Below are positions 1 to 41,059 of a stretch of 41,059 nt of DNA, in pieces. The first letter of the stretch is position 1. The number at the start of each line of letters is the position of its first letter. Origin of the DNA: a virus; the UHGV virus genome UHGV-1274323, one strand, 5' to 3'. The translations under genes were made by a program, and so were the position numbers. Below the pieces are notes generated by a model. It had not been told where the DNA came from. It searched no databases and saw only the letters and a list, made by a program, of their open reading frames with translations.

Positions 1-331
1 ATTGGAGAAGCTGTCCGATGGTAGTGATTTCTGTTATGGGTTCAGATTGCTGACTTATTTCAGCGCACGGAGCTGGTGATGGGGAAGGAGTGAGTACCTC
101 CAAATGAGGCTTCTGACTATAGGAACGATAAGGCTCTACCAGTTCCAACGGCTTTTCACAATCAAAATCTTGTGCCAGGATATGCTTTAGCTCATGCTCC
201 AGCGCCTTTTCCTGCTCTTCAGACGAAAGAAGACTGTTAATATAGATATTATAAAAGCCGGTGGAATCCTGTATAGTTATCCCCTTGACTGTACACGGTA
301 GGTCCACATATCGGATGCAATAGTCATTCAT
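1..331 (-). CDS. ImmA/IrrE-family HExxH metallopeptidase, partial (runs off the left edge)
   Basis: Reverse-strand translation from the ATG at 331 (RBS GAAGGAAA) gives MNDYCIRYVDLPCTVKGITIQDSTGFYNIYINSLLSSEEQEKALEHELKHIL... with no stop before position 1. The motif 'IYINS-L-SxEEQ-x-ALEHELKHIL' matches the ImmA/IrrE (DUF955) zinc-binding region. ATGA overlap with the upstream XRE repressor gives the ImmR-ImmA arrangement. Confidence 0.65.
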   Translation of the reverse strand, partial: MNDYCIRYVDLPCTVKGITIQDSTGFYNIYINSLLSSEEQEKALEHELKHILAQDFDCEKPLELVEPYRSYSQKPHLEVLTPSPSPAPCAEISQQSEPITEITTIGQLLQ

Positions 332-732
332 TTTCCTTCACTTTCATCTCTCAATGCTTCAATAATTTTGACAGCTTTTAGGACGTCTTCCGGAGTGGCC
401 TTCGAGGAGATAGAGAATAGCATCTTCATATCTGGCCTGGTACGCAAAGAATCCAATAGCTGTATCGTTTCATCATCCAGTCGAACAATATTGTCGTGCT
501 CATCGTACACAGTTACGGTGGGTTCTTTTTTTATGTCGGTTTTACCAAGCAGGTAATCGACGGATACCCCGAAGTAGTCGGCAATCTGAGCCAGCTTTTT
601 AGATGAAGGAGTTTGAGACCGCTTTTTCCACTGAGAGATAAGTCCGGTGGAAATTCCTGTAGCACGAGATAAATCGGCTTGGGACATCTCATTTTCCATC
701 ATAAGATTTTCTATTCTATCAAACGTATCCAT
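328..732 (-). CDS. XRE-family HTH transcriptional repressor (ImmR/CI-like)
   Basis: Start chosen at MDTFDRIENLMMENEMSQADLSRATGISTGLISQWKKRSQTPSSKKLAQIADYFGVSVDYLLG, a classic HTH_XRE. A GGAGGG RBS precedes the ATG at 732. The listed ORF 328..786 carries an unsupported N-terminal extension. The gene is divergent from the early operon. Confidence 0.85.
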   Translation of the reverse strand: MDTFDRIENLMMENEMSQADLSRATGISTGLISQWKKRSQTPSSKKLAQIADYFGVSVDYLLGKTDIKKEPTVTVYDEHDNIVRLDDETIQLLDSLRTRPDMKMLFSISSKATPEDVLKAVKIIEALRDESEGK

Positions 733-759
733 TTTTAGCCCTCCAAATTTGTGCACAGC

Positions 760-910
760 AAACAAACTTAGAAAACTTAGCAACAAACACTTGAACAGCT
801 TAGAAAACTATGCTATAGTGAGTTTACAGCAAAGAAAACTAAACGATGTACTTAGAAATGTTGCTCAGTTTACTTAATTATGGTGATTAAATCACTTAGC
901 AAACTAAGAA
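760..910. promoter_or_regulatory. Operator-like repeat field in the divergent repressor/early intergenic region
   Basis: CTTAG-containing motif ACTTAGAAAAC occurs 4 times (767-780, 799-809, 851-860). A palindrome CTTAGCAAACTAAG lies at 895-908. The repeats overlap the rightward promoter. Confidence 0.55.
791..819 (+). promoter_or_regulatory. Sigma70-type early promoter (P_R analogue)
   Basis: TTGAAC (791-796), 17-nt spacer, TATAGT (814-819). It faces the Xis/Cro-like gene at 969. One CTTAG repeat lies in the spacer. Confidence 0.6.
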
Positions 911-968
911 TATCACAAAACATAAGTAAACACAACTATCAAGGTGCACAGAGAAAGGAGGGAGTTAG

Positions 969-1145
969 ATGTCTCAAATGTATACTTGTGCTCAGATTGC
1001 TGAGAGATATGGTGTAAAGCTGTTCACTGTATGGACTTGGATTCGCAAAAAGAAACTTAACGCTATCAAAATTGGAAAAGAGTATCGTATCCGACAGATA
1101 GATGTTGAGGCTTTCGAACAGGCAAGAATGACGACAAAATTGTGA
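969..1145 (+). CDS. Excisionase/MerR-family HTH DNA-binding protein (Cro/Xis-like), 58 aa
   Basis: Not in the ORF track because it is under 60 aa. RBS AAGGAGG 8 nt upstream. Product MSQMYTCAQIAERYGVKLFTVWTWIRKKKLNAIKIGKEYRIRQIDVEAFEQARMTTKL has the excisionase-family helix-turn-helix pattern. Confidence 0.6.
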   Translation: MSQMYTCAQIAERYGVKLFTVWTWIRKKKLNAIKIGKEYRIRQIDVEAFEQARMTTKL

Positions 1146-1154
1146 AATGCAGTC

Positions 1155-2546: not shown

Positions 2547-2600
2547 AATTCGAGAAAAAACAACACAAATTACCGTAATACATGGAAAGGAGGATGAGCC

Positions 2601-2747: not shown

Positions 2748-2793
2748 GCCTGATTTCATGAGTAAAAAAATTGTAATAGGAGGTGAAAACCGC

Positions 2794-3006: not shown

Positions 3007-3066
3007 AGGGTGAGGGCATAAACCTGCTCAAAATTGAGTGAGTTCAAAACGAGGGAGGTGATCTAT

Positions 3067-3267
3067 ATGGAAAAGCCAGGATATCGTGATGCCCTTGAAC
3101 GCTTGTTGAATGTATTTGGAGGGCGAGATGTTTTAGATATGGGCGAGGTGTGTCAGTATCTACACCGCGACCGGAGGACACTGCTTCAGGACAAATCTTT
3201 TCCAGCTAAAAAGATAGCGGGAAAATATCTCATCTACATAACAGCGCTTGCAAGGTATTTATGTTAA
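3067..3267 (+). CDS. Small putative DNA-binding protein (66 aa)
   Basis: RBS GAGGGAGGTG before the ATG at 3067. It resembles the 969..1145 product (…DMGEVCQYLHRDRRTLLQ…KIAGKYLI). Confidence 0.45.
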   Translation: MEKPGYRDALERLLNVFGGRDVLDMGEVCQYLHRDRRTLLQDKSFPAKKIAGKYLIYITALARYLC

Positions 3268-3286
3268 AGCAAGGGGAAGTGAAACC

Positions 3287-3451
3287 ATGTCAGGAGCACT
3301 AATCGCGATGGGCCTAATCCTAGCGTGGATCTCGACCTGCCTAGTAGATGCGCCGCTGTCGGTGATCGCCCTGGTGGGCGGGACAGGCGTGGCGCTGATG
3401 GTGGGAGGGTACATAACAAAGAAGAAAGGGGAATGGCCAGATGGACAATGA
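3287..3451 (+). CDS. Small membrane protein (54 aa, 2 predicted TM helices)
   Basis: Start MSGALIAMGLILAWISTCLV…ALVGGTGVALMVGGYI, with RBS AAGGGGAAG. Confidence 0.4.
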   Translation: MSGALIAMGLILAWISTCLVDAPLSVIALVGGTGVALMVGGYITKKKGEWPDGQ

Positions 3452-3755
3452 GAAAATGGCAGACAAGCTGCGTGAGCTAAGTATCCCAATCCATAGGTTG
3501 CTTTGGACAGATGGCGATCCGCATTGTACGGTGATAATTACTCAGGATGGCGTTCGGCTCCTTCGCGATGAATTAGAAGTGCCAATGGAGTTCAATCCGC
3601 TTACAGATGAACTAAAAAATATATCAACGAAGGATTTAATTAGGGAACTGGAAGACCGTGACGAAGTAGAAGCTACATATTATACGCCGGACGTGGGAGC
3701 GGCTTTTAGCATATCAGGTCCTGCTATCTTATTAAAGATCAAATGCGAGCAGTGA
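3441..3755 (+). CDS. Hypothetical early protein (104 aa)
   Basis: ORF with RBS GAAAGGGGAA. Its C-terminal half is paralogous to the 3802..3969 product (KDLIRELEDRDEVE…GPAILL). Confidence 0.5.
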   Translation: MDNEKMADKLRELSIPIHRLLWTDGDPHCTVIITQDGVRLLRDELEVPMEFNPLTDELKNISTKDLIRELEDRDEVEATYYTPDVGAAFSISGPAILLKIKCEQ

Positions 3756-3801
3756 AACCAAGGGTACATAGTAAAGATATGCAGAGAGGAGAGAAAGCCA
3801 G

Positions 3802-3969
3802 ATGAAAAAAGAGATCGTTTCCGGTTGCGAACTAAAGGACATTGCTACCAAAGATTTAGTGGACGAGCTCAAAAAACGCGAAGGTGTGGAAACAGCAATC
3901 GCGGAGCCGTACCAAGATAAAGCTATCGAAGTAACCGGCCCCGCGATCATTCTGGTGGTTATGGATTAG
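3802..3969 (+). CDS. Small hypothetical protein (55 aa), paralogue of the C-terminal part of the 3441..3755 product
   Basis: RBS GAGAGGAGAG before the ATG. Product MKKEIVSGCELKDIATKDLVDELKKREGVETAIAEPYQDKAIEVTGPAIILVVMD. Confidence 0.45.
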   Translation: MKKEIVSGCELKDIATKDLVDELKKREGVETAIAEPYQDKAIEVTGPAIILVVMD

Positions 3970-3987
3970 CAAAGGAGAGATGAACAA

Positions 3988-4161
3988 ATGAAATTGGTCA
4001 TTAAAGGCAAACCTAAAGAGATTGCCGCCCTTGTACTGGAGATACAAGAGCGGCAGGAAGAATTCGTGCCATCACATGGCTATGGGTTGGAGCATAAGGA
4101 AACAGTTAGAACAGATTCTCCCGTATCCACTTCCACTGATCCCCAGTTAGCCACCCATTAA
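3988..4161 (+). CDS. Small hypothetical protein (57 aa)
   Basis: RBS AAAGGAGAGA before the ATG. Product MKLVIKGKPKEIAALVLEIQERQEEFVPSHGYGLEHKETV…. Its 3' end overlaps the convergent gene 4106..4372. Confidence 0.3.
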   Translation: MKLVIKGKPKEIAALVLEIQERQEEFVPSHGYGLEHKETVRTDSPVSTSTDPQLATH

Positions 4162-26100: not shown

Positions 26101-29100
26101 TTCATCAGGACTCGTTGACTTCAAGGCAGAGAGCTCTTGTTCAAAAAAGCGCTGAATACGGATATGAGCTGCACTATTTTACTAAGGGGACCGTATTCAA
26201 TGATGGGGAAGAGGATAAGATTATTGATAAGCAGGCGTTTATGATCCCCGGTCTAAACGCCATCTTTGCCATGGATGGTCAGGACATAGATTTCCTTCAC
26301 CATGAGCTGTTTCATCAGTTTTTTGATGAGAACAAGCATGGAGAACGGGCGTTGTTTAATGGTGTTAATAACAATGCCAACGAAGACAGTGCGCAATGGG
26401 AGTATTATCGAAATCGGGCGAAAGAAGCATACCGACGCGAAATCCCCGACGAACTGCTCATAGAAGAAATCACCGCTGACCTTTGTGAATACGCCATGTC
26501 GGGATCGGAACAGATGCACCGGCGCCTGGATGGACTGTTTCCGGATGGGATGCTGGAGAAGCTGGCGGGGCAGGCGCGGGATGTGTTTGCGGCGAACAGG
26601 AAAGGAGAAAAAGGAAAAGCCGCCGAAGAAGCCGGCGGCGTGAGGTATTCGCTGGAAGGCTACACGGAGCATCAAAAGGAAAACTGGGCCAACAGCAAAA
26701 GTATTGTCCTGTATGAAAGCCAGGAGCAGTTGGAGAGGTTCATTGATGATGCGCTGGACAAAAGAAATCTCAGCAAAAAATTGTATTTTGGCCGGATACC
26801 TAATGAATTGGCTGAACGGGTAATGCGTGAAACTGGAATAAACATAAAAGGATATAATTGTACCATTCAGGCTCAGGAAATACGTAAAATCCTTTTGCAC
26901 TCACATGGAGACAGTGAGAGTGAACAGATGCGGGGACAGAGAGCAGTTACACGAGAAGATATCCTTCAAATTCCAGAAGTGATCGAATCCCCCGATATCA
27001 TTCGGCTTTCGTCCAAGCTATATGAAGGCAAGCCAGTTCTTCAATTTGTAAAAACCGTCGAAGGGAAAACCACGGTAGTATCATATGTTTCAAAAAAGCA
27101 TCGGGATTTAGCGGTTCAGACGATGTATGCAGGCATAAAGAAAGGAAGCCTTGCCACCGCGACAGATGCTCCGACGAGCGGCCCCCTGTCTCTCACGTCC
27201 GAAACGACCGTTGGTACAGCTTCCAATAACAGTATAGCAAAAAGCGTGAATACTGTCAACGATAGTCTTTCCCAAAGCGGCGCCGGTGTGATCTGGGAAA
27301 CGCCGGAAAATGAAGTTTCGGAATGGATTCGGGATCAGGCGGCGGTGCTGGACGCCATCGGGAAAGAATTCGGCTATCGTTTCCTTATCCGTTCCTCCCT
27401 GCTGGGAGGCAAGGCAAACGGACAGACAGTCCCCGGCAGCCGGGAGATCGTTCTTTCGGCGGACAGCATGGAGGAAGCGCTGCTGTACTGGGCGGGGCAT
27501 GAGGTGATCCATGATCTGCAGGTCAGCTATCCGGAGGGCTATGAGGAGATTTCCCGTCAGGTGCTGGAGTATCTGGGACAGCAGGAGCGCTTTGATCTTA
27601 ACCGGAGGAAGCAGCAGCTGATCAGGGAATACCGGCGCGGCGGACTGGAGCTGACGGAAGAAGAGGCGGAGGAGGAAATCGTCTGCAACGGCGCGGCCGT
27701 CGCTTTTGCCGACGAGGATTTCATCCGGGGATGTGCGGAAAGAAACCGGAGTCTGTTGGAATGGCTGAAGGAAAAGCTGAACAGCCTGCTAGCGCGCATC
27801 CGGGAGGTGCTGGCCCGGCTGACGCGGACCAACCCGGAGGTGCGTGCTTATGCGAAAGCCCCCCTGGAGACTCTTACCCGGTTGCAGCAGTCGGTGGAGA
27901 CGGCGCTGCGGGAAAGTGCCGGGAGGGCAGGCGGCAGGCAGTCCTTCCGGCGGTCCATGACCACGCGCACGAGTACGGACAGCCAGGGGAGGACACTGTC
28001 ACCGGAACAGGAGGAATTCTTCCGCAACAGTGCGATCCGGGACAAGGACGGTCATCTTCAGGTGATGTATCATGCCACGGATGCTCAGTTCACGGTGTTT
28101 GATAAGAAAAAGCAGGGAACTGTCACCGATGGCGGGATTTGGGGCCGTGGTTTTTACTTTGATGTAGAGGAATCCTTTGCCCTGGAGTTTGGGAGCAAGG
28201 CCACCGCGTATTATCTCAACGTAGCCCGGCCTTACCGCACTACCTATGAGGCTACCTGCGGGGAAATCATGGAGCTGTTCCGGGAAAACGGCATTCGAAT
28301 CCGTTTCCGCATGGACCCCGAAGAAGGATTGAATCGATTCATCCGCCGGTTTGGATATAAAAAGTTCAGCGAGGCGCTGCGCTTCCTGGGGTATGACGGG
28401 GTATTTGTCTCCGGGAATGAATGCGCTGTATACGAGCCCAATCAGATCAAGCGGATTGACAACCTGTCTCCGACGGAACAGGAGGATGTGCGCTATGCGG
28501 CCAAAGAAAAGCGGGGGCTGCGGTATTCCCTGCAGAATGTGGATGGAGCGGACATCGACAGTCTGACAGAGGAGAATGAGGCGCTGCGGCGCCAGGTGGA
28601 GCTGCTGAAGCAGGAGTTCCGGTTGACGGAGGGACACCAGGTAAGCAAGGCGGCAGTGGAAGGACTGGCGGCCAAGGTTCTGCGGCAGACCAAGAGTGTG
28701 TATGACAAGGACACGCTGGCGGGAAATCTGCAAACGGTGTTTCGCTACATAGCCAACGACCCGGAGGCCAATTTTCAGGAGACGATGGAGGTGCTCACCG
28801 ACATTGCCGGGAGCGTCCTTCAGGAATCCACGTCGATGAATCGTGACCTGTACAACGAGTACGCCGACATGCGGGAATATTTCCGAAAGACCCCGTTGTC
28901 CCTGTCGGAGGCGGCGAAAGCCGAGCTGACAGACGGCTATGCGGATTTTCGTTCCCGCAATTTCGGTATGCTCAATTTGAGATCGGGCGGAACTCTTCTG
29001 AATGAACTGTGGGGTGAAATCTGCGAAAAATGGCCGCAGTTCTTTGATGCGGATCTTGCCGAGACGGAACAGCCGTATGCGGTAGTAGACGCGCTGAATG

Positions 29101-32100
29101 CTGTAAAACCGGCCTATATCAATCCATATGGGATGAACAACGCCGATGCCGCCCGTGATCTGGCGATGCAGCTGTATTATGAATACTTCGAGCTGCCGGA
29201 GGTGCATACCTTTGCGGACAAGCATAAAGCGGAGCTGGAGAAGCTCCGTGCAGAGTACCGCCGGAAGCTGCTGGATGCCCGTTCCGCCGCCCGCGACCAG
29301 TACAACAAACGGCTGGAAGAGGTACAGGAATGGAATGCCGGGAAGCGGCGGGAGCTGTCCAAGAAAATCCGTGAGACGGAGAACGCCAAACGTAAGCAGC
29401 AGCTGGCGGCCCAATACCGGCGGCTGATGGACCGGAAGGCGGAGCAGCTGGAAAGGCAGAAAGCCAAATTCCGGACCCAATGGGAAAATCGTGAGGCAAA
29501 CCGCCGGGAGCGGGAGGAGATTCGGAAACTGCGGACCCGGATTCGTTCCATTGCCGACGAACTGAGTAAGCGGTTGGTAAAGGAAACGGATCAGAAAAAC
29601 ATTCCGGAGGATTTCAAAAAGCCGGTGGCCGAGCTGCTGTCGATGCTGGATTTCACCACCGACCGGACGGAATCGGACAGCCAGGCAAGCCGGCGTCTGC
29701 GGGATTTACAGGCGGCCTATGCCAAGCTGGAAAGCGCTACCCAAGGAGAGGAAACGCCCCTTACTGACTACTTTGACCCGGATATTCTGAATATGATCGA
29801 GGAAGTGGCGGGACTGGTAGAGGGCAAGCGGGTGATTGATCTGGGGGTCCAAGAGCTTTCCCGGCTCAAGGATTTATTGAAGTCCATCTCCACCATTGTT
29901 CATAACGCCGGAAGGCTGTTCCGCGAGGATAAAGCGGTGACGGTAGCGGAGGCTGGAAAGGAAGCTATCCGCGTCCTCAACGCCAAAAAGCAGTTCCGGC
30001 GGGCCAAAATTGCGGAAGGGGAGAACAATCCCTTTGGATTTATGAGTGATTTGCTGGGCAAGGGGATGCTGACACCGTATTATTTCTTCAAGCAGTTGGA
30101 CGGACCGATGTGGGAACTGTTCCAGAAGGTGTATGACGGTGAGGATGTCCATACGGTGCTGCTGGCCCAGGCGGAGCAATACGCCAAGGAGACCATGGAG
30201 CGATATCACTTCCACGACTGGGACCGGTACGAGCTGAAAAAGGTCGGCCCGGTAGTGGTAAAGGATGAATCCGTCCCGTTCCAAACAGCCGGCGGGGATA
30301 CAGTCAGGCTGACTTTAGGCGAAATGCTGTCCCTGCATTCCCTTTACCGCCGGGATACGTATAAGAAAACCCATCACCTGGACAAAGGCGGTTTTGCCCT
30401 AGAGCGGGACGAAAAGGGGACAAGGCGGTTCGTCCTCTTCACAGACGAAGATTTTCTAAAGCTGGATGGGATGATTACCGAAGAGCAGAAGAAATTCTGG
30501 GATACGATGCTAAAATACCTGAGCAATGATGTTGCGGGGTGGATCAACGACACCTCCATGAAGCTGCTCGGCATCCGGAAAGCGACGGACACGTTCTATT
30601 TTCCCACGGAGGTAAGCGATACCGCCCTGCGGACGGAGCCAAGGCACGGTGCGGCCTCACCAGTGCTGAATCCGCCATTCCTGCGCCGGACCAGGGAAAA
30701 CGCCAACGCACCTGTGGTGGTGCGCGACGCCCTGACCGTGTGGACGGAACACGTGCAGCAGGCGGCGCTGTTCCGGGCATTCGGGATGCCGGTCCGGGAT
30801 CTGCTGCGGGTATGGAATTACAAATACCCCGGGGAACCGGGGCTGACCGTGAAGGCGGCCGTGCAGGGAGCTTTCGGCATACGGGCCAACGAATATATCG
30901 CCGATTTCCTGAGCGATCTGGACGGCGGTGTACAGCCCCAGCGGGAGACGGGATTGTTAAACTGGGGTATCACGCGGTTCAAGAAGCTGTCCGTGCTGGG
31001 GAACCTCCGCGTGGCCATCCAGCAGGCAATCTCCCTGGTCCGGGCGCTGCCGGATGTGAAGCTGAAATATCTGTTGATTCCGATCACCCCCGCCCAGATA
31101 AAACGGGAATATGAAGAGGCTATGCACTACGCGCCGGTGTATCGGCTCAAGAAATGGGGCAGTTTTGATGTTGGAATGGGTCAGGGCTTTCTGGAACGCC
31201 TTCTGGAGCAGGAGTATAAGGGCCTGTCCAAGGTCAAGGGCCTGGTGGCCGATTCCCGGTACCGCGATCAGGCAATGGGATTCCTGGCGGAAAAAGGAGA
31301 TGAGGTTGCCTGGGCGATTCTGTGGCGCGCGTACAAGCTCACCACGCGGGACGAGCATCCCGAGCTAGTAAAGGGGAGTGAGGCATTTTTCCGGGAGGCC
31401 GCCCGGTTGGCTACGGATTCTATCCGGAAAAGCCAGTGGTATGATTCCGTTTTCAAACGCAGCGCGATGATGCGTTCCAAGGATACCGGTGCGAAAATGG
31501 CCACCGCCTTTGTGGGAGAACCCACCACGATTTATAACATGCTGCTGGACGCCGCCAACGAGGCGAAAAGCGGAAAGGCGGGGTCAAAGAAGAAAGCGGG
31601 AAAGATATTTAAAGCTGTCCTCGCCAGCGGAATTCTTGGCGCTTTGGTGGTCAGTATCGCGGACGCTATGCGGGATGACGAAGACGAAAAGAAGGACGAG
31701 AACGGCAATATCATCGGGACCCGTTCCTTCTGGGACAAGTACTTGGAGGCTGTGCCGGAGAATTTCGTTGACAGTTACCTTGGGCTGATCCCGTATATTA
31801 AGGATGTCGTGTCCATCTTCCAGGGCTATGAAGTAAAACGCACGGATATGGAGCATTTCCAGAAGCTATATTATGCTCTGACGAAGCTGGGCAGTGACGA
31901 ATATACCACGGCAGAAAAAATAGATATTCTGGCAGGAGCGGCTACCGCCCTATTCGGCATCCCTTACGCCAATGTTTCTCGCGATCTGAAGGCGATTTAC
32001 CGGACCTTTTTCGGAGACGGCACAGATGGAACCGCCAGCTACCGGGGATATCTGCTGTACCGGTCGGTGCTGGAGGGAGACAAAGAGACCTATCAGGAGC

Positions 32101-32768
32101 TTTACAACGGATACCGGGAAGACGGTAAGACGGACAAGGAAATTCAAGGGGTGCTCCGTTCCGAGCTGGCTACCTATAGCCCCCTGATTTCGGAATCGGT
32201 GGCGGCGAAGCTGAACGGGGATCTGAATGCTTATGAAGCCGATATTCAGAAGATGATCCAGTCCGGATTCCAGCGTGAGATGGTTATTGATGCGGTGAAG
32301 AACTTTGAGCAGAAGCTGAAAACCATTGCCGGATACCGGGTGGACGGGAAGACAGAAGAAGCAGAAAAAGCACTGGCCAAGCTGTTTCCGCCGGAAGTGG
32401 ACGAGGAAACCCGAAAAACGATTGAAGCAAGAATTGATACGCTCACGGAAAAGAAGGCTGCCGAGCCGGAAGAGGAGGAAGAAGAACCCTCCTCCAGCCT
32501 GTACACTTATACCGATCTGTGCGAGGCAATCGAAAGGGGAGAGTCAAACAATGTCTCCAGGATTCTCCAGGATATGCGGAAAAACGGGAAGGAGGATAAA
32601 ACCATTCGGACTCAGGTAACCAGATACTTTAAGCCCTTGTATATCGTCTGTTATCAAAATAGGGATAAAGAGGGAATGAAGAAAATCGAGAAGGCTTTGT
32701 ACGCTTTGGACCTGGGGTACGATTACAAGGATTTTGAAGCGTGGACCGATCCTAAGGAGGACGAATAA
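23190..32768 (+). CDS. Giant 3192-aa virion protein: tape-measure/ejection-protein-like scaffold carrying embedded effector domains (polyvalent-protein-like)
   Basis: Single 9579-nt ORF with RBS GGGGGGTGTGAGGGAAAA-ATG and a strong terminator downstream. Gly/Ala-rich hydrophobic stretches at aa ~330-560. Long coiled coil at aa ~1790-2000. PARP-like ART motif set at aa ~1620-1760. HExxH at nt 26301-26315 and 27498-27512. A low-GC cassette lies at 25870-27300. Confidence 0.8.
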   Translation: MTFRDYLKNRGREEKEDSALTRLAEKKVSSTESERMSFRDFLRGAGQDSTSGGAQDNLFTQIKEERRARSWANSADSFLQKIQNDYSARHEGGYQSPESIQEYKKSVSSELQELLDGVKDAKQFASQITDEEKRKKYEKMVSDTQHYLQSVDWRLDLEERYWDKWDSEDSYNQWKKEYDRQKELDSYQQSILSRPDFEEYARKGAATENISLRDATDARGQFRSGSDELIGNKVTFTRDNAQSRPWETAAHSSIKPDIEERYTYMTDDEVSIYNYLLAKEGEEKADEYLATLTPYLNYRQGEDMAEKRKGSFLDTVGLSLTSGLDQFISGVRGWFTEEAEPVSATQIAAELARENIGSDIGKFAFDAGRVLGNMAPSIALGMVTGGVGSAAGLGTAGVQMANAVGTGLSVGASAGGNNYQQALREGYSVPQARTYGLTTGALEAGLQTVLGATAKGAGLVTSKVSSSLSNLVKSASQKVAVKVGMSALGEGFEEYLQEILNPVVRNLTLGEDNEFQLFTEEALYNGMLGAITGGLFSAADAGASRVSNPFFSVYGTEGSVSTQTDESGNVLGYMHFNRQGDIDGYVRVAKDGEAAIHKPFTSYENIQAYAYVDKEGVTQYGRVNADGEVVTGSFRPNDTADAGAASSVEADAVSSTETATGSVDTHAADGPANIPALYQLAQDAAANRQATPAGTAKGAVRTNGTPAADGENIRAASARPEDTSRAATSGQQGGTIANTGIRTDHTAEANALLAISGQEAAPVTVSGIGSVEDGNVRVTLSGGETVSLEDVSFDSQETESLYYAASDYTTPTARAFVSGYTGELPLKTYKVAFDFIRSQAREGVSFDTAVKQAGLAGQMMGLEAQQLAWYSGVNETAALHKAGENGTISTTKEGSRDNGEEEIHIRQYQGSAGGPDGGTRKENKKRSELSKRSGGVQETPQRVEKSLSGATKKRKRVVISSNEGNFSFDSIHQDSLTSRQRALVQKSAEYGYELHYFTKGTVFNDGEEDKIIDKQAFMIPGLNAIFAMDGQDIDFLHHELFHQFFDENKHGERALFNGVNNNANEDSAQWEYYRNRAKEAYRREIPDELLIEEITADLCEYAMSGSEQMHRRLDGLFPDGMLEKLAGQARDVFAANRKGEKGKAAEEAGGVRYSLEGYTEHQKENWANSKSIVLYESQEQLERFIDDALDKRNLSKKLYFGRIPNELAERVMRETGINIKGYNCTIQAQEIRKILLHSHGDSESEQMRGQRAVTREDILQIPEVIESPDIIRLSSKLYEGKPVLQFVKTVEGKTTVVSYVSKKHRDLAVQTMYAGIKKGSLATATDAPTSGPLSLTSETTVGTASNNSIAKSVNTVNDSLSQSGAGVIWETPENEVSEWIRDQAAVLDAIGKEFGYRFLIRSSLLGGKANGQTVPGSREIVLSADSMEEALLYWAGHEVIHDLQVSYPEGYEEISRQVLEYLGQQERFDLNRRKQQLIREYRRGGLELTEEEAEEEIVCNGAAVAFADEDFIRGCAERNRSLLEWLKEKLNSLLARIREVLARLTRTNPEVRAYAKAPLETLTRLQQSVETALRESAGRAGGRQSFRRSMTTRTSTDSQGRTLSPEQEEFFRNSAIRDKDGHLQVMYHATDAQFTVFDKKKQGTVTDGGIWGRGFYFDVEESFALEFGSKATAYYLNVARPYRTTYEATCGEIMELFRENGIRIRFRMDPEEGLNRFIRRFGYKKFSEALRFLGYDGVFVSGNECAVYEPNQIKRIDNLSPTEQEDVRYAAKEKRGLRYSLQNVDGADIDSLTEENEALRRQVELLKQEFRLTEGHQVSKAAVEGLAAKVLRQTKSVYDKDTLAGNLQTVFRYIANDPEANFQETMEVLTDIAGSVLQESTSMNRDLYNEYADMREYFRKTPLSLSEAAKAELTDGYADFRSRNFGMLNLRSGGTLLNELWGEICEKWPQFFDADLAETEQPYAVVDALNAVKPAYINPYGMNNADAARDLAMQLYYEYFELPEVHTFADKHKAELEKLRAEYRRKLLDARSAARDQYNKRLEEVQEWNAGKRRELSKKIRETENAKRKQQLAAQYRRLMDRKAEQLERQKAKFRTQWENREANRREREEIRKLRTRIRSIADELSKRLVKETDQKNIPEDFKKPVAELLSMLDFTTDRTESDSQASRRLRDLQAAYAKLESATQGEETPLTDYFDPDILNMIEEVAGLVEGKRVIDLGVQELSRLKDLLKSISTIVHNAGRLFREDKAVTVAEAGKEAIRVLNAKKQFRRAKIAEGENNPFGFMSDLLGKGMLTPYYFFKQLDGPMWELFQKVYDGEDVHTVLLAQAEQYAKETMERYHFHDWDRYELKKVGPVVVKDESVPFQTAGGDTVRLTLGEMLSLHSLYRRDTYKKTHHLDKGGFALERDEKGTRRFVLFTDEDFLKLDGMITEEQKKFWDTMLKYLSNDVAGWINDTSMKLLGIRKATDTFYFPTEVSDTALRTEPRHGAASPVLNPPFLRRTRENANAPVVVRDALTVWTEHVQQAALFRAFGMPVRDLLRVWNYKYPGEPGLTVKAAVQGAFGIRANEYIADFLSDLDGGVQPQRETGLLNWGITRFKKLSVLGNLRVAIQQAISLVRALPDVKLKYLLIPITPAQIKREYEEAMHYAPVYRLKKWGSFDVGMGQGFLERLLEQEYKGLSKVKGLVADSRYRDQAMGFLAEKGDEVAWAILWRAYKLTTRDEHPELVKGSEAFFREAARLATDSIRKSQWYDSVFKRSAMMRSKDTGAKMATAFVGEPTTIYNMLLDAANEAKSGKAGSKKKAGKIFKAVLASGILGALVVSIADAMRDDEDEKKDENGNIIGTRSFWDKYLEAVPENFVDSYLGLIPYIKDVVSIFQGYEVKRTDMEHFQKLYYALTKLGSDEYTTAEKIDILAGAATALFGIPYANVSRDLKAIYRTFFGDGTDGTASYRGYLLYRSVLEGDKETYQELYNGYREDGKTDKEIQGVLRSELATYSPLISESVAAKLNGDLNAYEADIQKMIQSGFQREMVIDAVKNFEQKLKTIAGYRVDGKTEEAEKALAKLFPPEVDEETRKTIEARIDTLTEKKAAEPEEEEEEPSSSLYTYTDLCEAIERGESNNVSRILQDMRKNGKEDKTIRTQVTRYFKPLYIVCYQNRDKEGMKKIEKALYALDLGYDYKDFEAWTDPKEDE
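28040..28470 (+). other. PARP-like (H-Y-E class) ADP-ribosyltransferase-type catalytic signature inside the giant ORF
   Basis: VMYHATDAQF (His) … GIWGRGFYFD (Gly-x-Gly-x-Tyr-Phe) … NECAVYEPNQIKRIDNL (Glu-x-x-x-Tyr-x-x-x-Gln). These parallel PARP's WHGS / GKGIYFAD / NEYIVYDIAQVNLKYLL. Confidence 0.55.
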
Positions 32769-35681: not shown

Positions 35682-36161
35682 ATGGCGGACGTGAAAGTGC
35701 AAATCCAGCTTTTGGACGAAGAAACAGGTGAGGTGGTTACAATAGTTGATCCCATTACCTCACCGGATGCGGTAATGTTTTCTGACGGAAAGACTTTATC
35801 GCAAAAACTTGAGGAAATTGAGTTGACACCAGGCCCAAAGGGGGACAAGGGAGATAAAGGCGATCCGGGCACGGCCGGAACATCCGCGACCATTACGGGG
35901 GCTACGGCTACGGTGGACGCCAATACGGGAACCCCTTCTGTAACGGTTACACCTGGGGGAACCGCTTCCGCGCGTACCTTCGCCTTTGCTTTCAAAAATC
36001 TAAAAGGCGCCACCGGGGCTCAAGGGCCAAAGGGAGCGACCGGAGCCGCTGGAGCTACTGGGCCTAAAGGAGACAAAGGTGATCCAGGTGACAATGTGAA
36101 AGTGGGTACCTCCTTGAGTTCGGCTACGGAACGGAAGCTGTTTTTCAAGGTGGTGATTTGA
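35682..36161 (+). CDS. Collagen-like (Gly-X-Y) repeat protein
   Basis: [20 protein letters not shown]… and [29 protein letters not shown] triplet repeats. RBS AAAGGAGGAAAAAAG. Confidence 0.75.
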
Positions 36162-36162
36162 T

Positions 36163-36657
36163 TTGAGTGCCATCCCGATACAAATCCAGGATACCGAAGG
36201 AAATATCTATCTGCCACAAACCAGCGTGGAGAATGTGGACGGGGCGGCGGCAGCAAGCGCCGGAACCTTGGAAGTAGACATTCCGGTGGACTGTGCAGAT
36301 GGGATATCCAAGTCGGTGAGCGGGAGTTATGTCCGTTGCGGAGACATGGTGACGGTTGGCGTTACATTCAGCGTGGAAACGGCTACCTCGAATTTGACGG
36401 GGACACTCGCCATCACAGGGCTGCCTTTTACGGCCAAATATGATGCTTATGCTGCATTAGCGGCCGATGGGACAAGCCACGATACGTCTCCTGTGCTTGC
36501 CTGTATAAAGGCGGGAAGCAATCAGATCGTTTTTGTTGGTGCGCAGGAGATAAGCGGCGCTCCGATATATTCATGGAAAACACTCGCTGCCGGAGATGTG
36601 TACTCAACGGTAGGATTTAAAGGCAATTTTACACTGACCTATATGGCGGCAGAATAA
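36163..36657 (+). CDS. Fibre-associated hypothetical protein (164 aa)
   Basis: TTG start coupled to the upstream stop, RBS GGTGGTG. It lies between the collagen-like gene and the endolysin. Confidence 0.45.
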   Translation: MSAIPIQIQDTEGNIYLPQTSVENVDGAAAASAGTLEVDIPVDCADGISKSVSGSYVRCGDMVTVGVTFSVETATSNLTGTLAITGLPFTAKYDAYAALAADGTSHDTSPVLACIKAGSNQIVFVGAQEISGAPIYSWKTLAAGDVYSTVGFKGNFTLTYMAAE

Positions 36658-37760: not shown

Positions 37761-38051
37761 ATGGACGAATTGGCGGTAAAAGTGGCAACCCTTGAACAGC
37801 GGCAAACCGTATCGGAGCACCGGATCAAAGACCTGGAGGGAGAAGTAAGGGATATCCGCACTTTAACCGCCGCTATGGCCAGGGTCAATGAAAAGGTGGA
37901 CGGGCTGTGCGGAGACGTGGAAGAGATCAAAAAGGATGTTAAAGACATCACGGCGCGTCCGGGACGGAAATGGGACAAGCTGGTGGCAGCAGCGATCGGG
38001 GCGATAGGCTCCGCCCTGGTCGCTAGCCTCCTTGCTCTTATTCTGAAATAA
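37761..38051 (+). CDS. XhlA-like lysis-associated membrane protein
   Basis: RBS AAGGAGGAACAAC. N-terminal coiled coil, then a C-terminal TM segment LVAAAIGAIGSALVASLLALIL. Adjacent to the holin and endolysin. Confidence 0.55.
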   Translation: MDELAVKVATLEQRQTVSEHRIKDLEGEVRDIRTLTAAMARVNEKVDGLCGDVEEIKKDVKDITARPGRKWDKLVAAAIGAIGSALVASLLALILK

Positions 38052-38067
38052 GGAAGGATGAATCAAA

Positions 38068-38280
38068 ATGAAAAACATGAAAAGCTGGATCAAGGCTGCG
38101 GGCGTCCGTGCAATCAAGACAGTGGCGCAGACGGCGGTAGCCACCATCGGAACTTCCGCCGTGATCGGAGATGTAAACTGGGTTATGGTCGCCAGCGCGT
38201 CCGCCCTTGCCGGTATCCTGTCCCTGCTTACGTCTATTGCGGGTCTGCCCGAGGTGAGCGTAGGAGAAACAACCGAATAG
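38068..38280 (+). CDS. Holin (LL-H family)
   Basis: [28 protein letters not shown]…[26 protein letters not shown] matches the LL-H holin pattern (…AGIRAIKTFAQT…LTSxAGLPEV). Confidence 0.8.
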
Positions 38281-38290
38281 GCAAAGAGAA

Positions 38291-38330
38291 AGCCGGGGCA
38301 TCCTAACGGGTGCTCCGGCTATTTGTTTTG
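38291..38330 (+). terminator. Rho-independent terminator after the lysis cassette
   Basis: AGCCGGGGCA-tcctaacggg-TGCTCCGGCT (10-bp stem with one G·U) followed by ATTTGTTTTGGGGTTTT. Confidence 0.65.
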
Positions 38331-38442
38331 GGGTTTTACGATAATAGCAATGGAGCACAACATAAATTTACCGACTTATTACCGACTTAGTAAAGGCAAA
38401 ATAGCATATTTCGTGCTAGAAATTGTTATCTCAAAACATAGC

Positions 38443-38488
38443 AAAAACCCTGTATTCAAGCCGTTTTTGGCATAAATACAGGGTTTTT
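38443..38488. terminator. Long perfect hairpin (candidate bidirectional terminator) inside the att region
   Basis: AAAAACCCTGTATT … AATACAGGGTTTTT: 14-bp inverted repeat with an 18-nt loop, A-run on one side and T-run on the other. Confidence 0.5.
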
Positions 38489-38492
38489 ACTA

Positions 38493-38522
38493 TGGCGGAG
38501 AAGGAGGGACTCGAACCCTCAT
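38493..38522 (-). other. tRNA 3'-end fragment (T-arm plus acceptor 3' strand plus CCA): integration core, not a complete tRNA
   Basis: The reverse complement reads GAGGGTTCGAGTCCCTCCTTCTCCGCCA, a GGTTCGAGTCC T-loop stem plus acceptor strand and CCA. No matching 5' acceptor strand, D-arm or anticodon arm is found upstream. Confidence 0.6.
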
Positions 38523-38577
38523 AAAACTGTGTAATATCAATAGCTCGGCTTGTCTTTACCGATTTACTACCGACTTA

Positions 38578-39591
38578 TTATGTTATTGCTAAATTAAGTT
38601 TTTTGGCGGTTTCTTTTCGGCGTTTATTGGTTATGTGGGTGTAGATGTCCCGTGTGGTTGATATATTTGCGTGCCCTAAAAGTTCCTGCGCATCTTTATC
38701 CTCTATTCCTGCCTCAAATAAAATCGTCGCATACGCATGACGTAACTGATGGGGGGTAACAGTTACGCCGGATTCTTTCTGATACAATTCCCACTGCCGT
38801 TGAAACTGTGTCTCAGTGAGCAGCTCACCATCAGCGTTAGGGAAGAGAAGGGCATCCTTATCTTTCTGCGTAGGTAGTTTTTTGGCCAATATGTTCAGCA
38901 ATATAACCTCCCGGCATCCTGCGGCAGTTTTAGGTTGCTTTATATGTGGTCGATTATTATCATGATACACCGACTTTGATATATAAATCAATCCGTTTTT
39001 TCGATCAATATCACCGTATGTGAGAGCAAGGGCCTCCCCGCGCCGACAGCCAGTATATAGCAGGAAATATGCAAACAGTCCGAAAGTGCAATTTAAGCCC
39101 TTTTTTACCTTTTCTATCTCTTTTTCATCCGGAATATCGCGCCGTTTCTTGGGAAGGCCCTTCGGGATTTTTACAGATGCGGCGGGATTGTATTCCAGCC
39201 GTCCATCCAGCACACTTTTTTCAAATATAAGGTGGATAACTAAGAGCTGGGTGCGCACGGTTTTTTGAGCAAAACCTTGTTTGGCCATTTTCTCTAACAT
39301 ACGGCTGATTGCTTTCGGGGTTATCGTTTGCTCGTCCTGGTCGCCAAATTCTTCTATTGCGCGGCGAAGAGCGGGCTTATATCCTTTAAGAGTGTTGTAT
39401 TCCAAAGTAGGAAAATGTTCCTTTTCCCATTCTTCCGCTGATACTTTGAATTTAATGCCGTGTTTAGTTTCTTCTTTATATTCAGCAATTTTTCGGTTCA
39501 GTTCACGCTCATTATGGCCGTAAAACGACTTTCTTTTTCCGTTTATGGTAACTTGCCGCTGTATCAATCCATCGGGTCGTCGTGTAGCCAT
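38578..39591 (-). CDS. int: Tyrosine site-specific integrase
   Basis: C-terminal HQLRHAYATILFEAGIEDKDAQELLGHANISTTRDIYTHI (R…HxxR…Y catalytic signature). N-terminal SAM-like/arm-binding region. The ATG at 39591 is preceded by RBS AAGAGGAGA. The listed ORF extends 10 codons upstream to a TTG. Confidence 0.9.
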   Translation of the reverse strand: MATRRPDGLIQRQVTINGKRKSFYGHNERELNRKIAEYKEETKHGIKFKVSAEEWEKEHFPTLEYNTLKGYKPALRRAIEEFGDQDEQTITPKAISRMLEKMAKQGFAQKTVRTQLLVIHLIFEKSVLDGRLEYNPAASVKIPKGLPKKRRDIPDEKEIEKVKKGLNCTFGLFAYFLLYTGCRRGEALALTYGDIDRKNGLIYISKSVYHDNNRPHIKQPKTAAGCREVILLNILAKKLPTQKDKDALLFPNADGELLTETQFQRQWELYQKESGVTVTPHQLRHAYATILFEAGIEDKDAQELLGHANISTTRDIYTHITNKRRKETAKKLNLAIT

Positions 39592-39756
39592 TCTAAAGGA
39601 TCTCCTCTTAGTTTTTTTCAATCCATGTGCCCCGCATTAAGATCAGCAAAGGGGCCGGTTCCGCAGCCCTATTTTTAAATCCCCCTGCTTTGTATTTTGC
39701 GGACGGCTTCTATTCTGTCCGGATCAATAAAGATAATGTCGTTATCTTCGTTCATA

Positions 39757-40392
39757 TTATATAACCTTACTGGTAAATGCTACGGCTTTACCTAATATAC
39801 GGATTTTGTTGGTGGCATCACCTATAAATACAAGTGGCTGATATTTTGGGTTCGCTGGTATCAGCGTTATTTGGTTGTCATCCTTATACACCCTTTTCAG
39901 CGTTGAGCGGGATTCTGACTGATTGTCTATCAACACAACGGCAATTTCCCCATTTTCGACATCGGGCTGTTCCTTAACATAAATAATGTCACCGTCATAT
40001 ATACGGGCATCAATCATACTGTCGCCCTCGCATCGTACCGCAAAATCGCATTTTACGTCCGTAGGAACTACCACGTATTCTTCTATGTTCTGTACCGCGG
40101 TTAGTGGTTCTCCACACGCAATTGTGCCGAGCAACGGCTTCTTTCCCCTTTTGGGGAGCGGAAGCATATTGGTAGCGTGTACTTCTGCTGGTTCTTCCCA
40201 GCCCATAAGATAAGCGGGGGTTGTGCTGAGTGCGATGGCAAATTCCGATATTTTGCTTTGATTTATATCGCGCAATCCTAATTCTATTTTATTGATCGTA
40301 GAACGTGATTTGTATCCTAGCTTATAGGCGAGTTCCTGTTGTGACATTCCAAGTTCTTCTCTCCGGAGTTTAATCCTATCGTATATAGTCAT
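39757..40392 (-). CDS. CI/LexA-like repressor (HTH_XRE plus S24 peptidase domain)
   Basis: N-terminal HTH (ELGMSQQELAYKLGYKSRSTINKIELG). C-terminal S24 signature GDSM with a downstream Lys (…VRCEGDSMIDARIYDGDIIYVKEQ…). Confidence 0.85.
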   Translation of the reverse strand: MTIYDRIKLRREELGMSQQELAYKLGYKSRSTINKIELGLRDINQSKISEFAIALSTTPAYLMGWEEPAEVHATNMLPLPKRGKKPLLGTIACGEPLTAVQNIEEYVVVPTDVKCDFAVRCEGDSMIDARIYDGDIIYVKEQPDVENGEIAVVLIDNQSESRSTLKRVYKDDNQITLIPANPKYQPLVFIGDATNKIRILGKAVAFTSKVI

Positions 40393-40492
40393 TATCTTTG
40401 CCCCTTTGTTATTTTATTTGATCTATTGCAAGGTGGTTTATATCGCATAATGAAAGGTGGTTGCGCAAGTTTTACAATAGTATCAATATATC

Positions 40493-40849
40493 TCATCCAA
40501 CACATTTCTTACACGGCGTGTATCCTTGGGCGATAGCCTGATCCAGTTCCACAGCAAATGAATTCTTACCGCCGCAGGTGCTCCTGTAATGGTATCGCTT
40601 CCCTGTAGGAGTTATGTACACGGTACGGGAGATTTTTTGCTGTGTTGTTGGTTCTGCAATAATGGGTGGAACTGTAGTCGAGGTTTGATTCCGCGTGGTT
40701 GTAGTAGTGATTTGAGCTGTGCTTTGCGAAGACACAGAAGGCAGATGATTTTCAAGTATTTCGCCTTCTGTCTGGCTTGTGTTCAGATTCCCGCAGGCAG
40801 CAAGGAAAAGAAGGGTACACGAAAAAATGGCCGCAAAAAGTTTTTTCAT
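40493..40849 (-). CDS. Lipoprotein moron with Cys/His cluster (YHYRSTC…GYTPCKKC)
   Basis: Signal peptide MKKLFAAIFSCTLLFLAAC with a lipobox. RBS GGAGGAG. It shares the YH-x3-C…GY-x-C-x-KC motif with the 1155..2546 protein. Confidence 0.75.
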   Translation of the reverse strand: MKKLFAAIFSCTLLFLAACGNLNTSQTEGEILENHLPSVSSQSTAQITTTTTRNQTSTTVPPIIAEPTTQQKISRTVYITPTGKRYHYRSTCGGKNSFAVELDQAIAQGYTPCKKCVG

Positions 40850-40872
40850 TTGAACTCCTCCACATCAAAGAT

Positions 40873-40899
40873 TGACATTATTTGTCGTAAAGGTATAAT
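40873..40899 (+). promoter_or_regulatory. Near-consensus sigma70 promoter (TTGACA-15 nt-TATAAT) with no ORF downstream
   Basis: TTGACA at 40873-40878 and TATAAT at 40894-40899. Transcription would run into the hairpin at 40946-40972. Confidence 0.5.
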
Positions 40900-40945
40900 G
40901 AGAATGTGAAGGATGATCTCTCAAAAAGATAATTCTTTACTTAAA

Positions 40946-40985
40946 CTCTCCAAGGGGTCCAGCCTTGGAGAGTTCTCTATTCTGC
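40946..40985. terminator. Perfect 10-bp stem-loop with flanking U-rich tracts (bidirectional terminator, or 3' end of a short RNA)
   Basis: CTCTCCAAGG-ggtccag-CCTTGGAGAG followed by TTCTCTATTCTG. On the reverse strand it is followed by TTTAAGTAAAGAATTATCTTTTT. Confidence 0.55.
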
Positions 40986-41059
40986 ATATATATCGATATG
41001 TCGTTTATTAAGCGGTTTAGGGTGTGACTTTGCTTTTTTGATTTCAAGCTCCACCATAA

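What the first reader, a model, noticed from the sequence alone, without database searches (positions are those of the whole stretch)
38578..41059. Lysogeny module appears to continue across the window end into the window start, so the window is probably a circularly permuted complete genome
Reading the minus strand leftwards gives XRE repressor (732->328), then ImmA-like peptidase (331->1, truncated by the window edge). If the sequence is joined end-to-start, the same frame continues for 26 more codons (…GQLLQ|FMVELEIKKAKSHPKPLNKRHIDIYAE*). It stops at 40978, five nucleotides before the perfect terminator hairpin at 40972-40946. The lipoprotein moron, CI-like repressor and integrase follow, all on the same strand. 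That gives a coherent int-cI-moron-immA-xre leftward unit with attP next to int. The non-round window length (41,059 bp) also suggests a whole contig. An alternative is two related prophages in tandem at the same tRNA. In that case the int/cI/lipoprotein genes at 38578-40849 belong to the neighbour.
Basis: inference. Interest (0 to 1): 0.55.

Follow-up and report, generated by a model that had tools for sequence, protein, structure and literature searches.

The report
Complete circular temperate phage genome
The two ends of this 41-kb sequence are neighbours in the real molecule, so the window is one full copy of a circular temperate gut phage genome that was cut open inside a small regulatory gene, which is an ordinary result of how the sequence was linearised.

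Summary
Joining window end to window start on the minus strand gives a 137-aa ORF (331..1 plus 41059..40980, stop TAG 40979..40977). The 26-codon continuation alone is weak evidence (about 17% by chance). The proof comes from other assemblies. In 20 loci from 17 samples, window base 41059 lies directly next to base 1, with no gap or overlap. Nine loci carry the exact 200-mer across the junction. Homologues at 46-47% identity keep an invariant motif, TEITTIGQLL-x-FMVEL, that straddles the junction. One close relative is a 41,780-bp contig with an exact 55-bp end overlap, which is the mark of a circular assembly. It holds the window junction internally. The window has a single attP, the last 28 nt of a tRNA-Ser, lying between integrase and holin. 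This is the excised form, not an integrated prophage. Integrated relatives end int-att-host, which refutes the idea that int/cI/lipoprotein belong to a neighbouring prophage. Two corrections apply. The lipoprotein plus LexA-like repressor is an optional cassette. The ImmA assignment is weak. The result is ordinary and of low interest.

The parts
328..732 (-). XRE/CI-type HTH repressor, 134 aa. Its TGA stop overlaps the ATG of the next gene (ATGA).
   Evidence: Pfam HTH_3 E 9e-11 and Phage_CI_repr E 5e-7. phrog_8/phrog_4 transcriptional regulator/repressor. The exact protein is indexed in 67 collection blocks, 24 contigs were read.
1..331 (-). N-terminal 110 codons plus 1 nt of the ImmA/IrrE-like (M78-like) 137-aa gene, cut by the window edge. 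HELKH motif at residues 46-50.
   Evidence: Translation. Peptidase_M78 E 1.6e-3, below the cut-off. All 4 family members hit M78, best E 2.8e-5. phrog_87 metallo-protease E 8e-5.
40977..41059 (-). C-terminal 2 nt plus 26 codons plus TAG stop of the same 137-aa gene.
   Evidence: The same 414-nt gene is called in 16 loci checked. The conserved motif TEITTIGQLLxFMVEL straddles the junction in 46-47%-identical homologues.
40944..40974 (.). Perfect hairpin just after the immA-like stop. Probable terminator or transcript-end structure, possibly working in both directions.
   Evidence: called as terminator-like on the + strand. (-21 kcal/mol, z -3.6 on the minus strand). The surrounding intergenic region is 100% identical in 19 loci.
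40872..40899 (+). Consensus sigma-70-type promoter (TTGACA-16-TATAAT, 12/12) pointing towards the hairpin. Its -10 overlaps a weaker minus-strand promoter-like site (40924..40895) upstream of the lipoprotein gene.
   Evidence: Function not tested.
40493..40849 (-). 118-aa predicted lipoprotein (MKKLFAAIFSCTLLFLAAC...). Accessory ('moron') gene.
   Evidence: Sequence. Exact protein indexed in 95 collection blocks. Absent from L008.
39757..40392 (-). LexA/CI-like repressor, 211 aa, HTH plus S24 autoprotease domain. Part of the same optional cassette.
   Evidence: Pfam Peptidase_S24 E 2e-26 and HTH_3 E 6e-12. phrog_4 E 2e-37. Absent from L008.
38578..39591 (-). Tyrosine integrase, 337 aa as called in relatives.
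   Evidence: Pfam Phage_integrase E 3e-26. It is the last phage gene before host DNA in L003/L007/L008/L010/L019.
38493..38520 (-). attP core, identical to the last 28 nt (T-arm, 3' acceptor strand, CCA) of tRNA-Ser genes. Single copy. No full tRNA in the window.
   Evidence: Identity with integrated relatives stops at 38493 (L008, L019) or 38501 (L003 family). The same 3' end occurs in tRNA-Ser(TGA) and tRNA-Ser(GCT) of L084/L085.
38068..38280 (+). Holin (r1t type), the last gene of the late operon. It lies across attP from int, which marks the excised/circular configuration.
   Evidence: PF16945 on identical products. holin-attP-int adjacency in 18 loci.
733..968 (.). Divergent intergenic control region with repeated ACTTAG(A/C)AAACT motifs. 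Candidate operators (inferred).
   Evidence: 3 matches against 0.4 expected.
969..1145 (+). HTH_17 (MerR/excisionase-type) 58-aa protein, divergent from xre. Candidate Cro-like regulator or excisionase.
   Evidence: Pfam HTH_17 E 1.3e-10. phrog_66 excisionase and transcriptional regulator E 6e-8.

Best explanation
The window is exactly one unit (41,059 bp) of a circularly closed assembly of an uncultivated temperate tailed phage from the human or animal gut. The host is probably in the Oscillospirales/Ruminococcaceae. The circle was linearised at an arbitrary point that falls inside a 137-aa ImmA/IrrE-like gene.

Rejoining the ends restores the lysogeny region on the minus strand: xre (repressor), overlapping immA-like gene, hairpin, lipoprotein, LexA-like S24 repressor, tyrosine integrase, attP. 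attP is the 3' 28 nt of a tRNA-Ser and is flanked on its other side by the holin/lysis end of the late operon. The sequence therefore represents the excised form (replicative, virion-derived or concatemer-collapsed), not an integrated prophage.

Likely mechanism, inferred from the families. Int recombines attP with the 3' end of a host tRNA-Ser gene. The XRE repressor holds the divergent early promoter region through the repeated operator-like motifs. The translationally coupled HExxH protein acts as an ImmA-type anti-repressor protease on induction. The lipoprotein plus S24-repressor cassette is an add-on, probably for exclusion or a second immunity, and is not part of the core switch.

Shown here: the adjacency, the circularity of a close relative, and the att site boundaries. 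Inferred: the protease-repressor relationship, the operators, and the packaging mode.
For: - **Adjacency.** All 20 junction-spanning loci, from 17 samples, put window 41059 directly next to window 1. The 6-kb joined junction aligns at 99.91-99.97% without interruption. The exact 200-mer across the junction is present in 9 loci. The 137-aa gene is called in every such contig and is identical in 5 records.
- **Conservation across the junction.** Homologues at 46-47% identity (150 aa) align end to end and keep TEITTIGQLLxFMVEL invariant across the junction.
- **Circularity of a relative.** ERZ28565738 scaffold_1347 (41,780 bp) has an exact 55-bp suffix=prefix overlap. It breaks at window-equivalent position ~10.3 kb and holds the window junction internally.
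- **Contig sizes.** Further relatives assemble as contigs of 40,486-42,272 bp with different end points. None exceeds ~42 kb unless integrated (104,674-bp L007 record).
- **Single attP.** There is one attP and no full tRNA in the window. Integrated relatives diverge from the window exactly at the att core.
- **Complete gene set.** Present are primase/helicase, small and large terminase, portal and major head protein; the giant virion-type protein and fibre genes; and amidase and holin.
Against: - The window itself has no terminal repeat. Its own circularity is therefore inferred from the seamless join, not seen in its assembly graph or reads.
- The source record was not found. The exact 3192-aa protein is not on record. 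There is no near match in INPHARED. The exact junction is absent from IMG/VR.
- A tandem prophage dimer or a concatemer would collapse to the same circular path in an assembler.
- The attL junction (intact tRNA next to the holin arm) was not recovered.
- The ImmA-like call is below Pfam's threshold. The AlphaFold model was unusable, with pLDDT 48.
Confidence: 0.93

Rival explanations
1. The window comes from two tandem copies of the same prophage (or a replicative concatemer) at the tRNA-Ser site, collapsed by the assembler into one unit. The int-attP-holin join would then be the internal junction of a dimer, not an excised circle.
For: Integrated forms of this phage exist (L003, L007, L008, L010, L019). 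An assembler cannot tell a dimer junction from attP. The window carries no terminal overlap of its own.
Against: No contig shows host DNA on one side together with an internal int-attP-holin junction. All attP-form contigs are 42 kb or shorter and free of host genes. One of them is closed by a 55-bp overlap. Even if this rival were true, the unit would still be one complete genome with the same end-to-start join.
Confidence: 0.05
2. One reading: two different, related prophages sit side by side, and int/cI/lipoprotein (38578-40849) belong to the neighbour, not to the phage that carries xre/immA.
For: The lipoprotein plus S24 repressor segment behaves as a separable cassette. The phage therefore carries two repressors.
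Against: The order xre-immA-(cassette)-int recurs in about 20 contigs from 17 samples. In L008 immA is followed directly by the same int. In L008 and L019 int is followed by the att core and host genes. The window holds only one copy of every module and only one att core.
Confidence: 0.01
3. The window is a linear fragment, and the in-frame continuation across its ends is a coincidence.
For: A 26-codon stop-free run is expected in about 17% of shuffles.
Against: Exact base-to-base adjacency in 20 independent loci. Exact 200-mer matches. A conserved protein motif spans the join.
Confidence: 0.01

Closest known systems
Metagenome-assembled circular phage genomes recognised by terminal overlap (the direct-terminal-repeat criterion used by CheckV, PMC8116208)
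   Same: A close relative has the k-mer-sized (55 bp) end overlap. The window's ends join seamlessly. It has a full gene complement and a unit length of about 41 kb that recurs across samples.
   Different: The window itself carries no overlap, presumably because it was trimmed. Its closure is therefore shown indirectly, through other assemblies.
ImmR/ImmA repressor and anti-repressor protease pair of Bacillus subtilis ICEBs1 and phage phi105-type prophages (PMC8960796; also reported in gut Clostridia prophages, PMC11318856)
   Same: An XRE-type HTH repressor is followed by a translationally coupled (ATGA overlap) small HExxH protein, divergent from the early genes.
   Different: The protein is short (137 aa). 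Only residues ~5-67 resemble M78. Its Pfam score of 18.6 bits is below the 22-bit cut-off. There is no NCBIfam or PDB hit. The conserved C-terminal motif TEITTIGQLLxFMVEL has no known counterpart. Cleavage was not tested.
Lambda CI / LexA family repressors (HTH plus Peptidase S24 autoprotease)
   Same: The 211-aa protein has both domains at full length.
   Different: Here it sits in an optional cassette with a lipoprotein, between immA and int. It coexists with a second (XRE/ImmA) switch. Relative L008 lacks it.
Tyrosine-integrase phages and islands that integrate into the 3' end of tRNA genes (own knowledge: P4, P22, phiCTX types; Williams 2002)
   Same: The attP core equals the 3' 28 nt of a tRNA-Ser and lies next to int. 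The integrated junction int-core-tRNA-downstream terminator was observed.
   Different: The intact-tRNA junction (attL) and the exact tRNA-Ser isoacceptor were not recovered. One lineage (L003 family) has a truncated core fused to a Type III methylase gene.
Uncultured human-faecal 'Bacteriophage sp.' contigs MT836159, MT836324 and others, in INPHARED
   Same: The large terminase is 61.8-73.2% identical at the protein level in the six closest records.
   Different: There is no DNA-level match. No cultured phage is close. The next hits are at most 43%.

Membership tests
Complete, circularly closed phage genome (assembly sense) | The last base is contiguous with the first base in independent data | tested here: met
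   20 loci from 17 samples show 41059|1 adjacent without gap or overlap. The exact 200-mer is present in 9 loci.
Complete, circularly closed phage genome (assembly sense) | Terminal overlap or direct terminal repeat on the contig itself | tested here: not met
   The window has no suffix=prefix of 5-500 nt. The close relative ERZ28565738 scaffold_1347 does have a 55-bp overlap. The window looks overlap-trimmed.
Complete, circularly closed phage genome (assembly sense) | Full set of phage modules, with a single attP in place of attL/attR | tested here: met
   Replication, terminase, portal and capsid. Fibres and giant protein. Lysis genes. One att core and no intact tRNA.
Complete, circularly closed phage genome (assembly sense) | Reads or read pairs from the source sample span the junction | not testable with these tools
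   No read data are available and the source record was not identified.
ImmA/IrrE (Peptidase M78) anti-repressor proteases | HExxH zinc-binding motif in an M78 domain that scores above the family threshold | tested here: inconclusive
   HELKH at residues 46-50 is invariant in homologues at H, E and H. Pfam M78 scores 18.6 bits against a cut-off of 22, and all 4 members hit weakly, best E 2.8e-5. phrog_87 E 8e-5. No NCBIfam or PDB hit. The AF2 model has pLDDT 48 and was not usable.
ImmA/IrrE (Peptidase M78) anti-repressor proteases | Encoded immediately downstream of, and co-transcribed with, its XRE-type repressor substrate | tested here: met
   xre stop and immA start overlap as ATGA at 328-331. 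The pair is conserved in all related contigs.
ImmA/IrrE (Peptidase M78) anti-repressor proteases | Site-specific cleavage of the cognate repressor on induction | not testable with these tools
   This needs biochemistry or genetics.
LexA/CI S24 repressors | N-terminal HTH plus a full-length C-terminal S24 domain | tested here: met
   HTH_3 at residues 7-62 and Peptidase_S24 at residues 86-204, covering profile positions 1-116 of 116, E 2e-26.
tRNA-targeting tyrosine integrase module | Tyrosine recombinase catalytic domain | tested here: met
   PF00589 E 3e-26, 92.7 bits against a cut-off of 27.1.
tRNA-targeting tyrosine integrase module | attP core identical to the 3' part of a tRNA gene, with phage/host junctions at that core | tested here: met
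   The 28-nt core equals the tRNA-Ser 3' end. The int-side junction with host DNA lies exactly at the CCA end in L008 and L019. The other junction (intact tRNA) was not found.

The most novel reading that the evidence does not exclude
The 1.36-kb segment between immA and int (39613-40976) carries a lipoprotein and a LexA-like S24 repressor. It is preceded by a consensus promoter/hairpin element that is 100% conserved. This segment may be a self-contained, exchangeable 'second immunity / exclusion' cassette. It would give the phage two independent damage-sensing switches (XRE/ImmA and S24 autocleavage). It may also encode a ~75-nt RNA made from the + strand promoter at 40872-40899 and ended by the hairpin at 40944-40974. 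Relatives carry none, one or an enlarged version of the cassette.
Probability: 0.2. Interest if true: 0.35.

Novelty: new member of a known kind. Interest (0 to 1): 0.12.

Why it matters
The value is mainly practical. The window can be treated as a complete phage genome. The two gene fragments at its edges should be annotated as one 137-aa gene, not as two truncated ones. The lysogeny module should be read as one continuous block next to attP. The work also defines the integration site (tRNA-Ser 3' end) and shows that the phage occurs in both excised and integrated states across many public gut metagenomes. None of this challenges current understanding.

Tried and rejected
- **Source record.** The exact junction 40-mer was not found in IMG/VR. 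Megablast of both window ends against INPHARED gave no match. The 3192-aa protein is not on record, so the source contig was not identified.
- **Joined protein.** I got round this with its neighbours and a homology search.
- **attL and the intact tRNA.**
  - ARAGORN found no tRNA at the att site on the window or on the first 28 metagenome loci (L001-L028).
  - Holin and amidase look-ups returned only attP-form or unrelated contexts.
  - The metagenome-contig scan for core plus P' arm found nothing.
  - The tRNA was identified as Ser only through identical 3' ends in unrelated IMG/VR contigs.
- **ImmA fold.** PDB sequence and profile searches gave nothing. NCBIfam gave nothing. The AlphaFold2 model on a 4-sequence alignment had pLDDT 48, so no fold search was run.
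- **RNA.** Rfam found no family anywhere in the window.
- **L004 inversion.** I looked for inverted repeats that could explain the inversion of 896-2884 and found none.
- **Rejected readings.** A chance ORF continuation, a neighbouring second prophage, and physical genome ends inside immA (implausible, since the terminase genes lie 12 kb away).
Full report
**Observation.**

Reading the minus strand, the window opens inside a gene. The ATG at 331..329 overlaps the TGA of the upstream XRE gene (732..328) as ATGA, and the frame runs off the window at base 1. Placing the window's last bases in front of its first bases continues the frame for 26 codons to a TAG at 40979..40977. The result is a 137-aa product...TEITTIGQLLQ|FMVELEIKKAKSHPKPLNKRHIDIYAE. 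A perfect hairpin follows 2-4 nt later. It spans 40944-40974 and folds at -21 kcal/mol with z = -3.6. Downstream on the same strand lie four features:

- a 118-aa lipoprotein-like gene (40849..40493);
- an HTH plus S24 repressor (40392..39757);
- a tyrosine integrase (39591..38578);
- a 28-nt tRNA 3' fragment (38520..38493).

The hairpin also lacks a U-run on the minus strand. The open frame alone proves nothing, because 17% of shuffles give 26 stop-free codons.

**Is the join real?**

I looked up the exact XRE and lipoprotein proteins in public assemblies. That returned 20 loci from 17 different samples. In every one, a 414-nt gene for a 137-aa protein sits between the XRE gene and the lipoprotein gene. 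In L008 the lipoprotein gene is absent and it sits next to int; in L007 no 118-aa product was called. BLAST of the whole window against these loci shows window base 41059 directly abutting base 1 in all 20, with no missing or duplicated base. A 6-kb artificial join aligns at 99.91-99.97% across the junction. The exact 200-mer centred on the junction is present in nine loci (six records), and five records encode a protein identical to the joined ORF.

A homology search found the same 137-aa family plus two 150-aa homologues at 46-47% identity. These align end to end and keep the motif TEITTIGQLL-x-FMVEL invariant, and that motif is exactly where the window is cut. The join is therefore a property of the biological sequence, not an accident.

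**Is it a circle and a whole genome?**

The window contains one copy of every phage module:

- primase/helicase, small and large terminase, portal and major head protein;
- a giant 3192-aa protein and fibre genes;
- amidase and holin;
- the lysogeny block.

It holds a single att core and no intact tRNA. The integrase and the holin face each other across that core. This is the attP configuration of an excised genome, and 18 loci fetched here, including the relatives L001-L020, carry the same att core in that configuration.

One close relative can be examined at both ends. ENA ERZ28565738 scaffold_1347 is 41,780 bp and 98-99.5% identical in shared modules. Its last 55 bases are identical to its first 55, the usual mark of a circular de Bruijn contig (criterion as in CheckV, PMC8116208). 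Its break lies at window-equivalent ~10.3 kb, so the window's junction lies in its interior. Other relatives assemble as contigs of 40,486, 40,971, 41,066, 41,490, 41,588, 41,732 and 42,272 bp with different end points. The only longer contig, at 104,674 bp, is an integrated copy.

The window has no terminal overlap of its own. I could not find its source record. Its own closure is therefore inferred from the seamless join, not read from its assembly.

**Integration site.**

Integrated relatives stop matching the window exactly at the att core.

- In L008 and L019 the sequence after ...GAGGGTTCGAGTCCCTCCTTCTCCGCCA switches to a host terminator. A DAHP-synthase gene and other host genes follow.
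- In L003, L007, L010, L016 and L018 the match ends 8 nt earlier. The sequence then runs into the 3' end of a Type III methyltransferase gene, followed by host genes and a tRNA-Thr.

The 28-nt core is identical to the 3' end of tRNA-Ser(TGA) and tRNA-Ser(GCT) genes found in unrelated IMG/VR contigs. The target is therefore a tRNA-Ser 3' end. The other prophage junction, with the intact tRNA, was not recovered.

Int, the S24 repressor and the lipoprotein belong to the same element as xre/immA, because int is the last phage gene before host DNA. A tandem dimer of the same phage cannot be excluded by assembly data alone. It would not change the conclusion about the unit.

**How the module probably works (inference from family knowledge).**

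The XRE repressor and the overlapping HExxH protein resemble the ImmR/ImmA pair of ICEBs1 and many Firmicute prophages (PMC8960796, PMC11318856). In that pair, the repressor shuts the divergent early promoter and the protease inactivates it on induction. The 236-bp divergent region carries three copies of ACTTAG(A/C)AAACT, which are candidate operators. The first rightward gene is an HTH_17 excisionase/regulator-type protein.

Membership of the 137-aa protein in M78 remains inconclusive:

- the HExxH motif is conserved;
- the Pfam score is below threshold;
- NCBIfam and PDB give nothing;
- the AlphaFold model was too poor to use.

The LexA-like S24 repressor and the lipoprotein form a 1.36-kb cassette. 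It is missing in L008, where immA runs straight into the int upstream region, and it is enlarged by an extra 211-aa gene in L004, L014 and L019. It is therefore accessory and not the core switch. The strong hairpin and the 100-165-bp gaps argue for several transcription units in place of one leftward operon.

**Comparison and novelty.**

No cultured or deposited phage matches at the DNA level. The nearest large terminases are uncultured human-faecal contigs at about 70% protein identity. ImmA-like relatives in species-representative genomes are Ruminococcaceae, Ruminococcus, Hominimerdicola, Acutalibacteraceae and Oscillospiraceae, at 45-64% identity. The phage is thus an undescribed member of familiar kinds: a tRNA-integrating temperate phage with an XRE/ImmA-type switch. 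The finding itself is a linearisation artefact of a circular assembly. It is useful for annotation but not surprising.

**Verdict.**

Interest is low.

Noticed in passing
window 39613-40976; L008 2356-2491; L004/L014/L019 at window-equivalent 40475/40483: The lipoprotein plus S24-repressor segment is an insertion/deletion cassette. It is absent in L008, where immA is followed directly by the int upstream region. It is enlarged by an extra 211-aa gene with no Pfam hit in L004, L014 and L019. The phage therefore carries two repressor systems, one of them optional.
   Followed up: partly
window 40872-40985 (+ strand): A 12/12 consensus sigma-70 promoter (TTGACA-16-TATAAT) points at the hairpin 40944-40974, which the scan calls as a + strand terminator. 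It could make a ~75-nt RNA convergent with immA. Its -10 overlaps a weaker minus-strand promoter-like site upstream of the lipoprotein gene. The 151-bp intergenic region (40840-40990) is 100% identical in 19 loci, although the flanks differ by 1-3%. There is no Rfam match.
   Followed up: partly
window 896-2884 compared with L004 7850-9837: In one relative (ERZ28614865 scaffold_2630) the segment carrying the HTH_17 gene, the BamE-like gene and a 48-aa gene is inverted. The breakpoints are sharp, with no flanking inverted repeats, and the inversion disrupts the 70-aa HTH gene at ~2884. It is either a real inversion or a misassembly.
   Followed up: partly
L003 9584-9620 (also L007, L010, L016, L018); window-equivalent 38501: In five contigs from at least four samples the att core is truncated (…CCCTCCTT|GGCAATGCC…) and fused to the 3' end of a Type III RM methyltransferase gene in place of tRNA-downstream sequence. 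This suggests either integration at a secondary site or a deletion next to the prophage.
   Followed up: partly
window 23190-32768 (+): A single 3192-aa ORF occupies 23% of the genome. It carries PBECR3 nuclease (residues 1203-1314) and ART-PolyVal ADP-ribosyltransferase (residues 1618-1761) domains, so it is a 'polyvalent protein' sitting among the virion genes. Its length varies among relatives where it is read whole (3147-3174 aa), and in L022 it appears split into several genes.
   Followed up: partly
window 1155-2546 (-): A 463-aa ORF (452 aa as called) with repetitive, faint BamE-like hits lies on the opposite strand inside the early region. It is present in some relatives (L002, L003, L006, L007, L010). 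In others (L001, L005, L009, L014) it is replaced by ~400 bp or by a 122-aa gene. It is a second variable moron slot.
   Followed up: no
window 35682-36657 compared with L001 14757-15913: The tail-fibre module has been swapped. The window (like L021 and L022) has a collagen-repeat 159-aa protein plus a 164-aa protein. Most relatives have two Mtd_N-domain proteins (203 and 176 aa) at that place.
   Followed up: no
window 1-4000 and 38000-41059 compared with 12000-38000: The lysogeny and early region is 42-46% G+C. The packaging and structural genes are 52-61% G+C. This marked compositional mosaic is consistent with module exchange.
   Followed up: no
window 38437-38494: A long imperfect palindrome (AAAAACCCTGTATT...AATACAGGGTTTTT) lies between the holin and the att core. 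It is probably a bidirectional terminator closing the late operon right at the P' arm.
   Followed up: no
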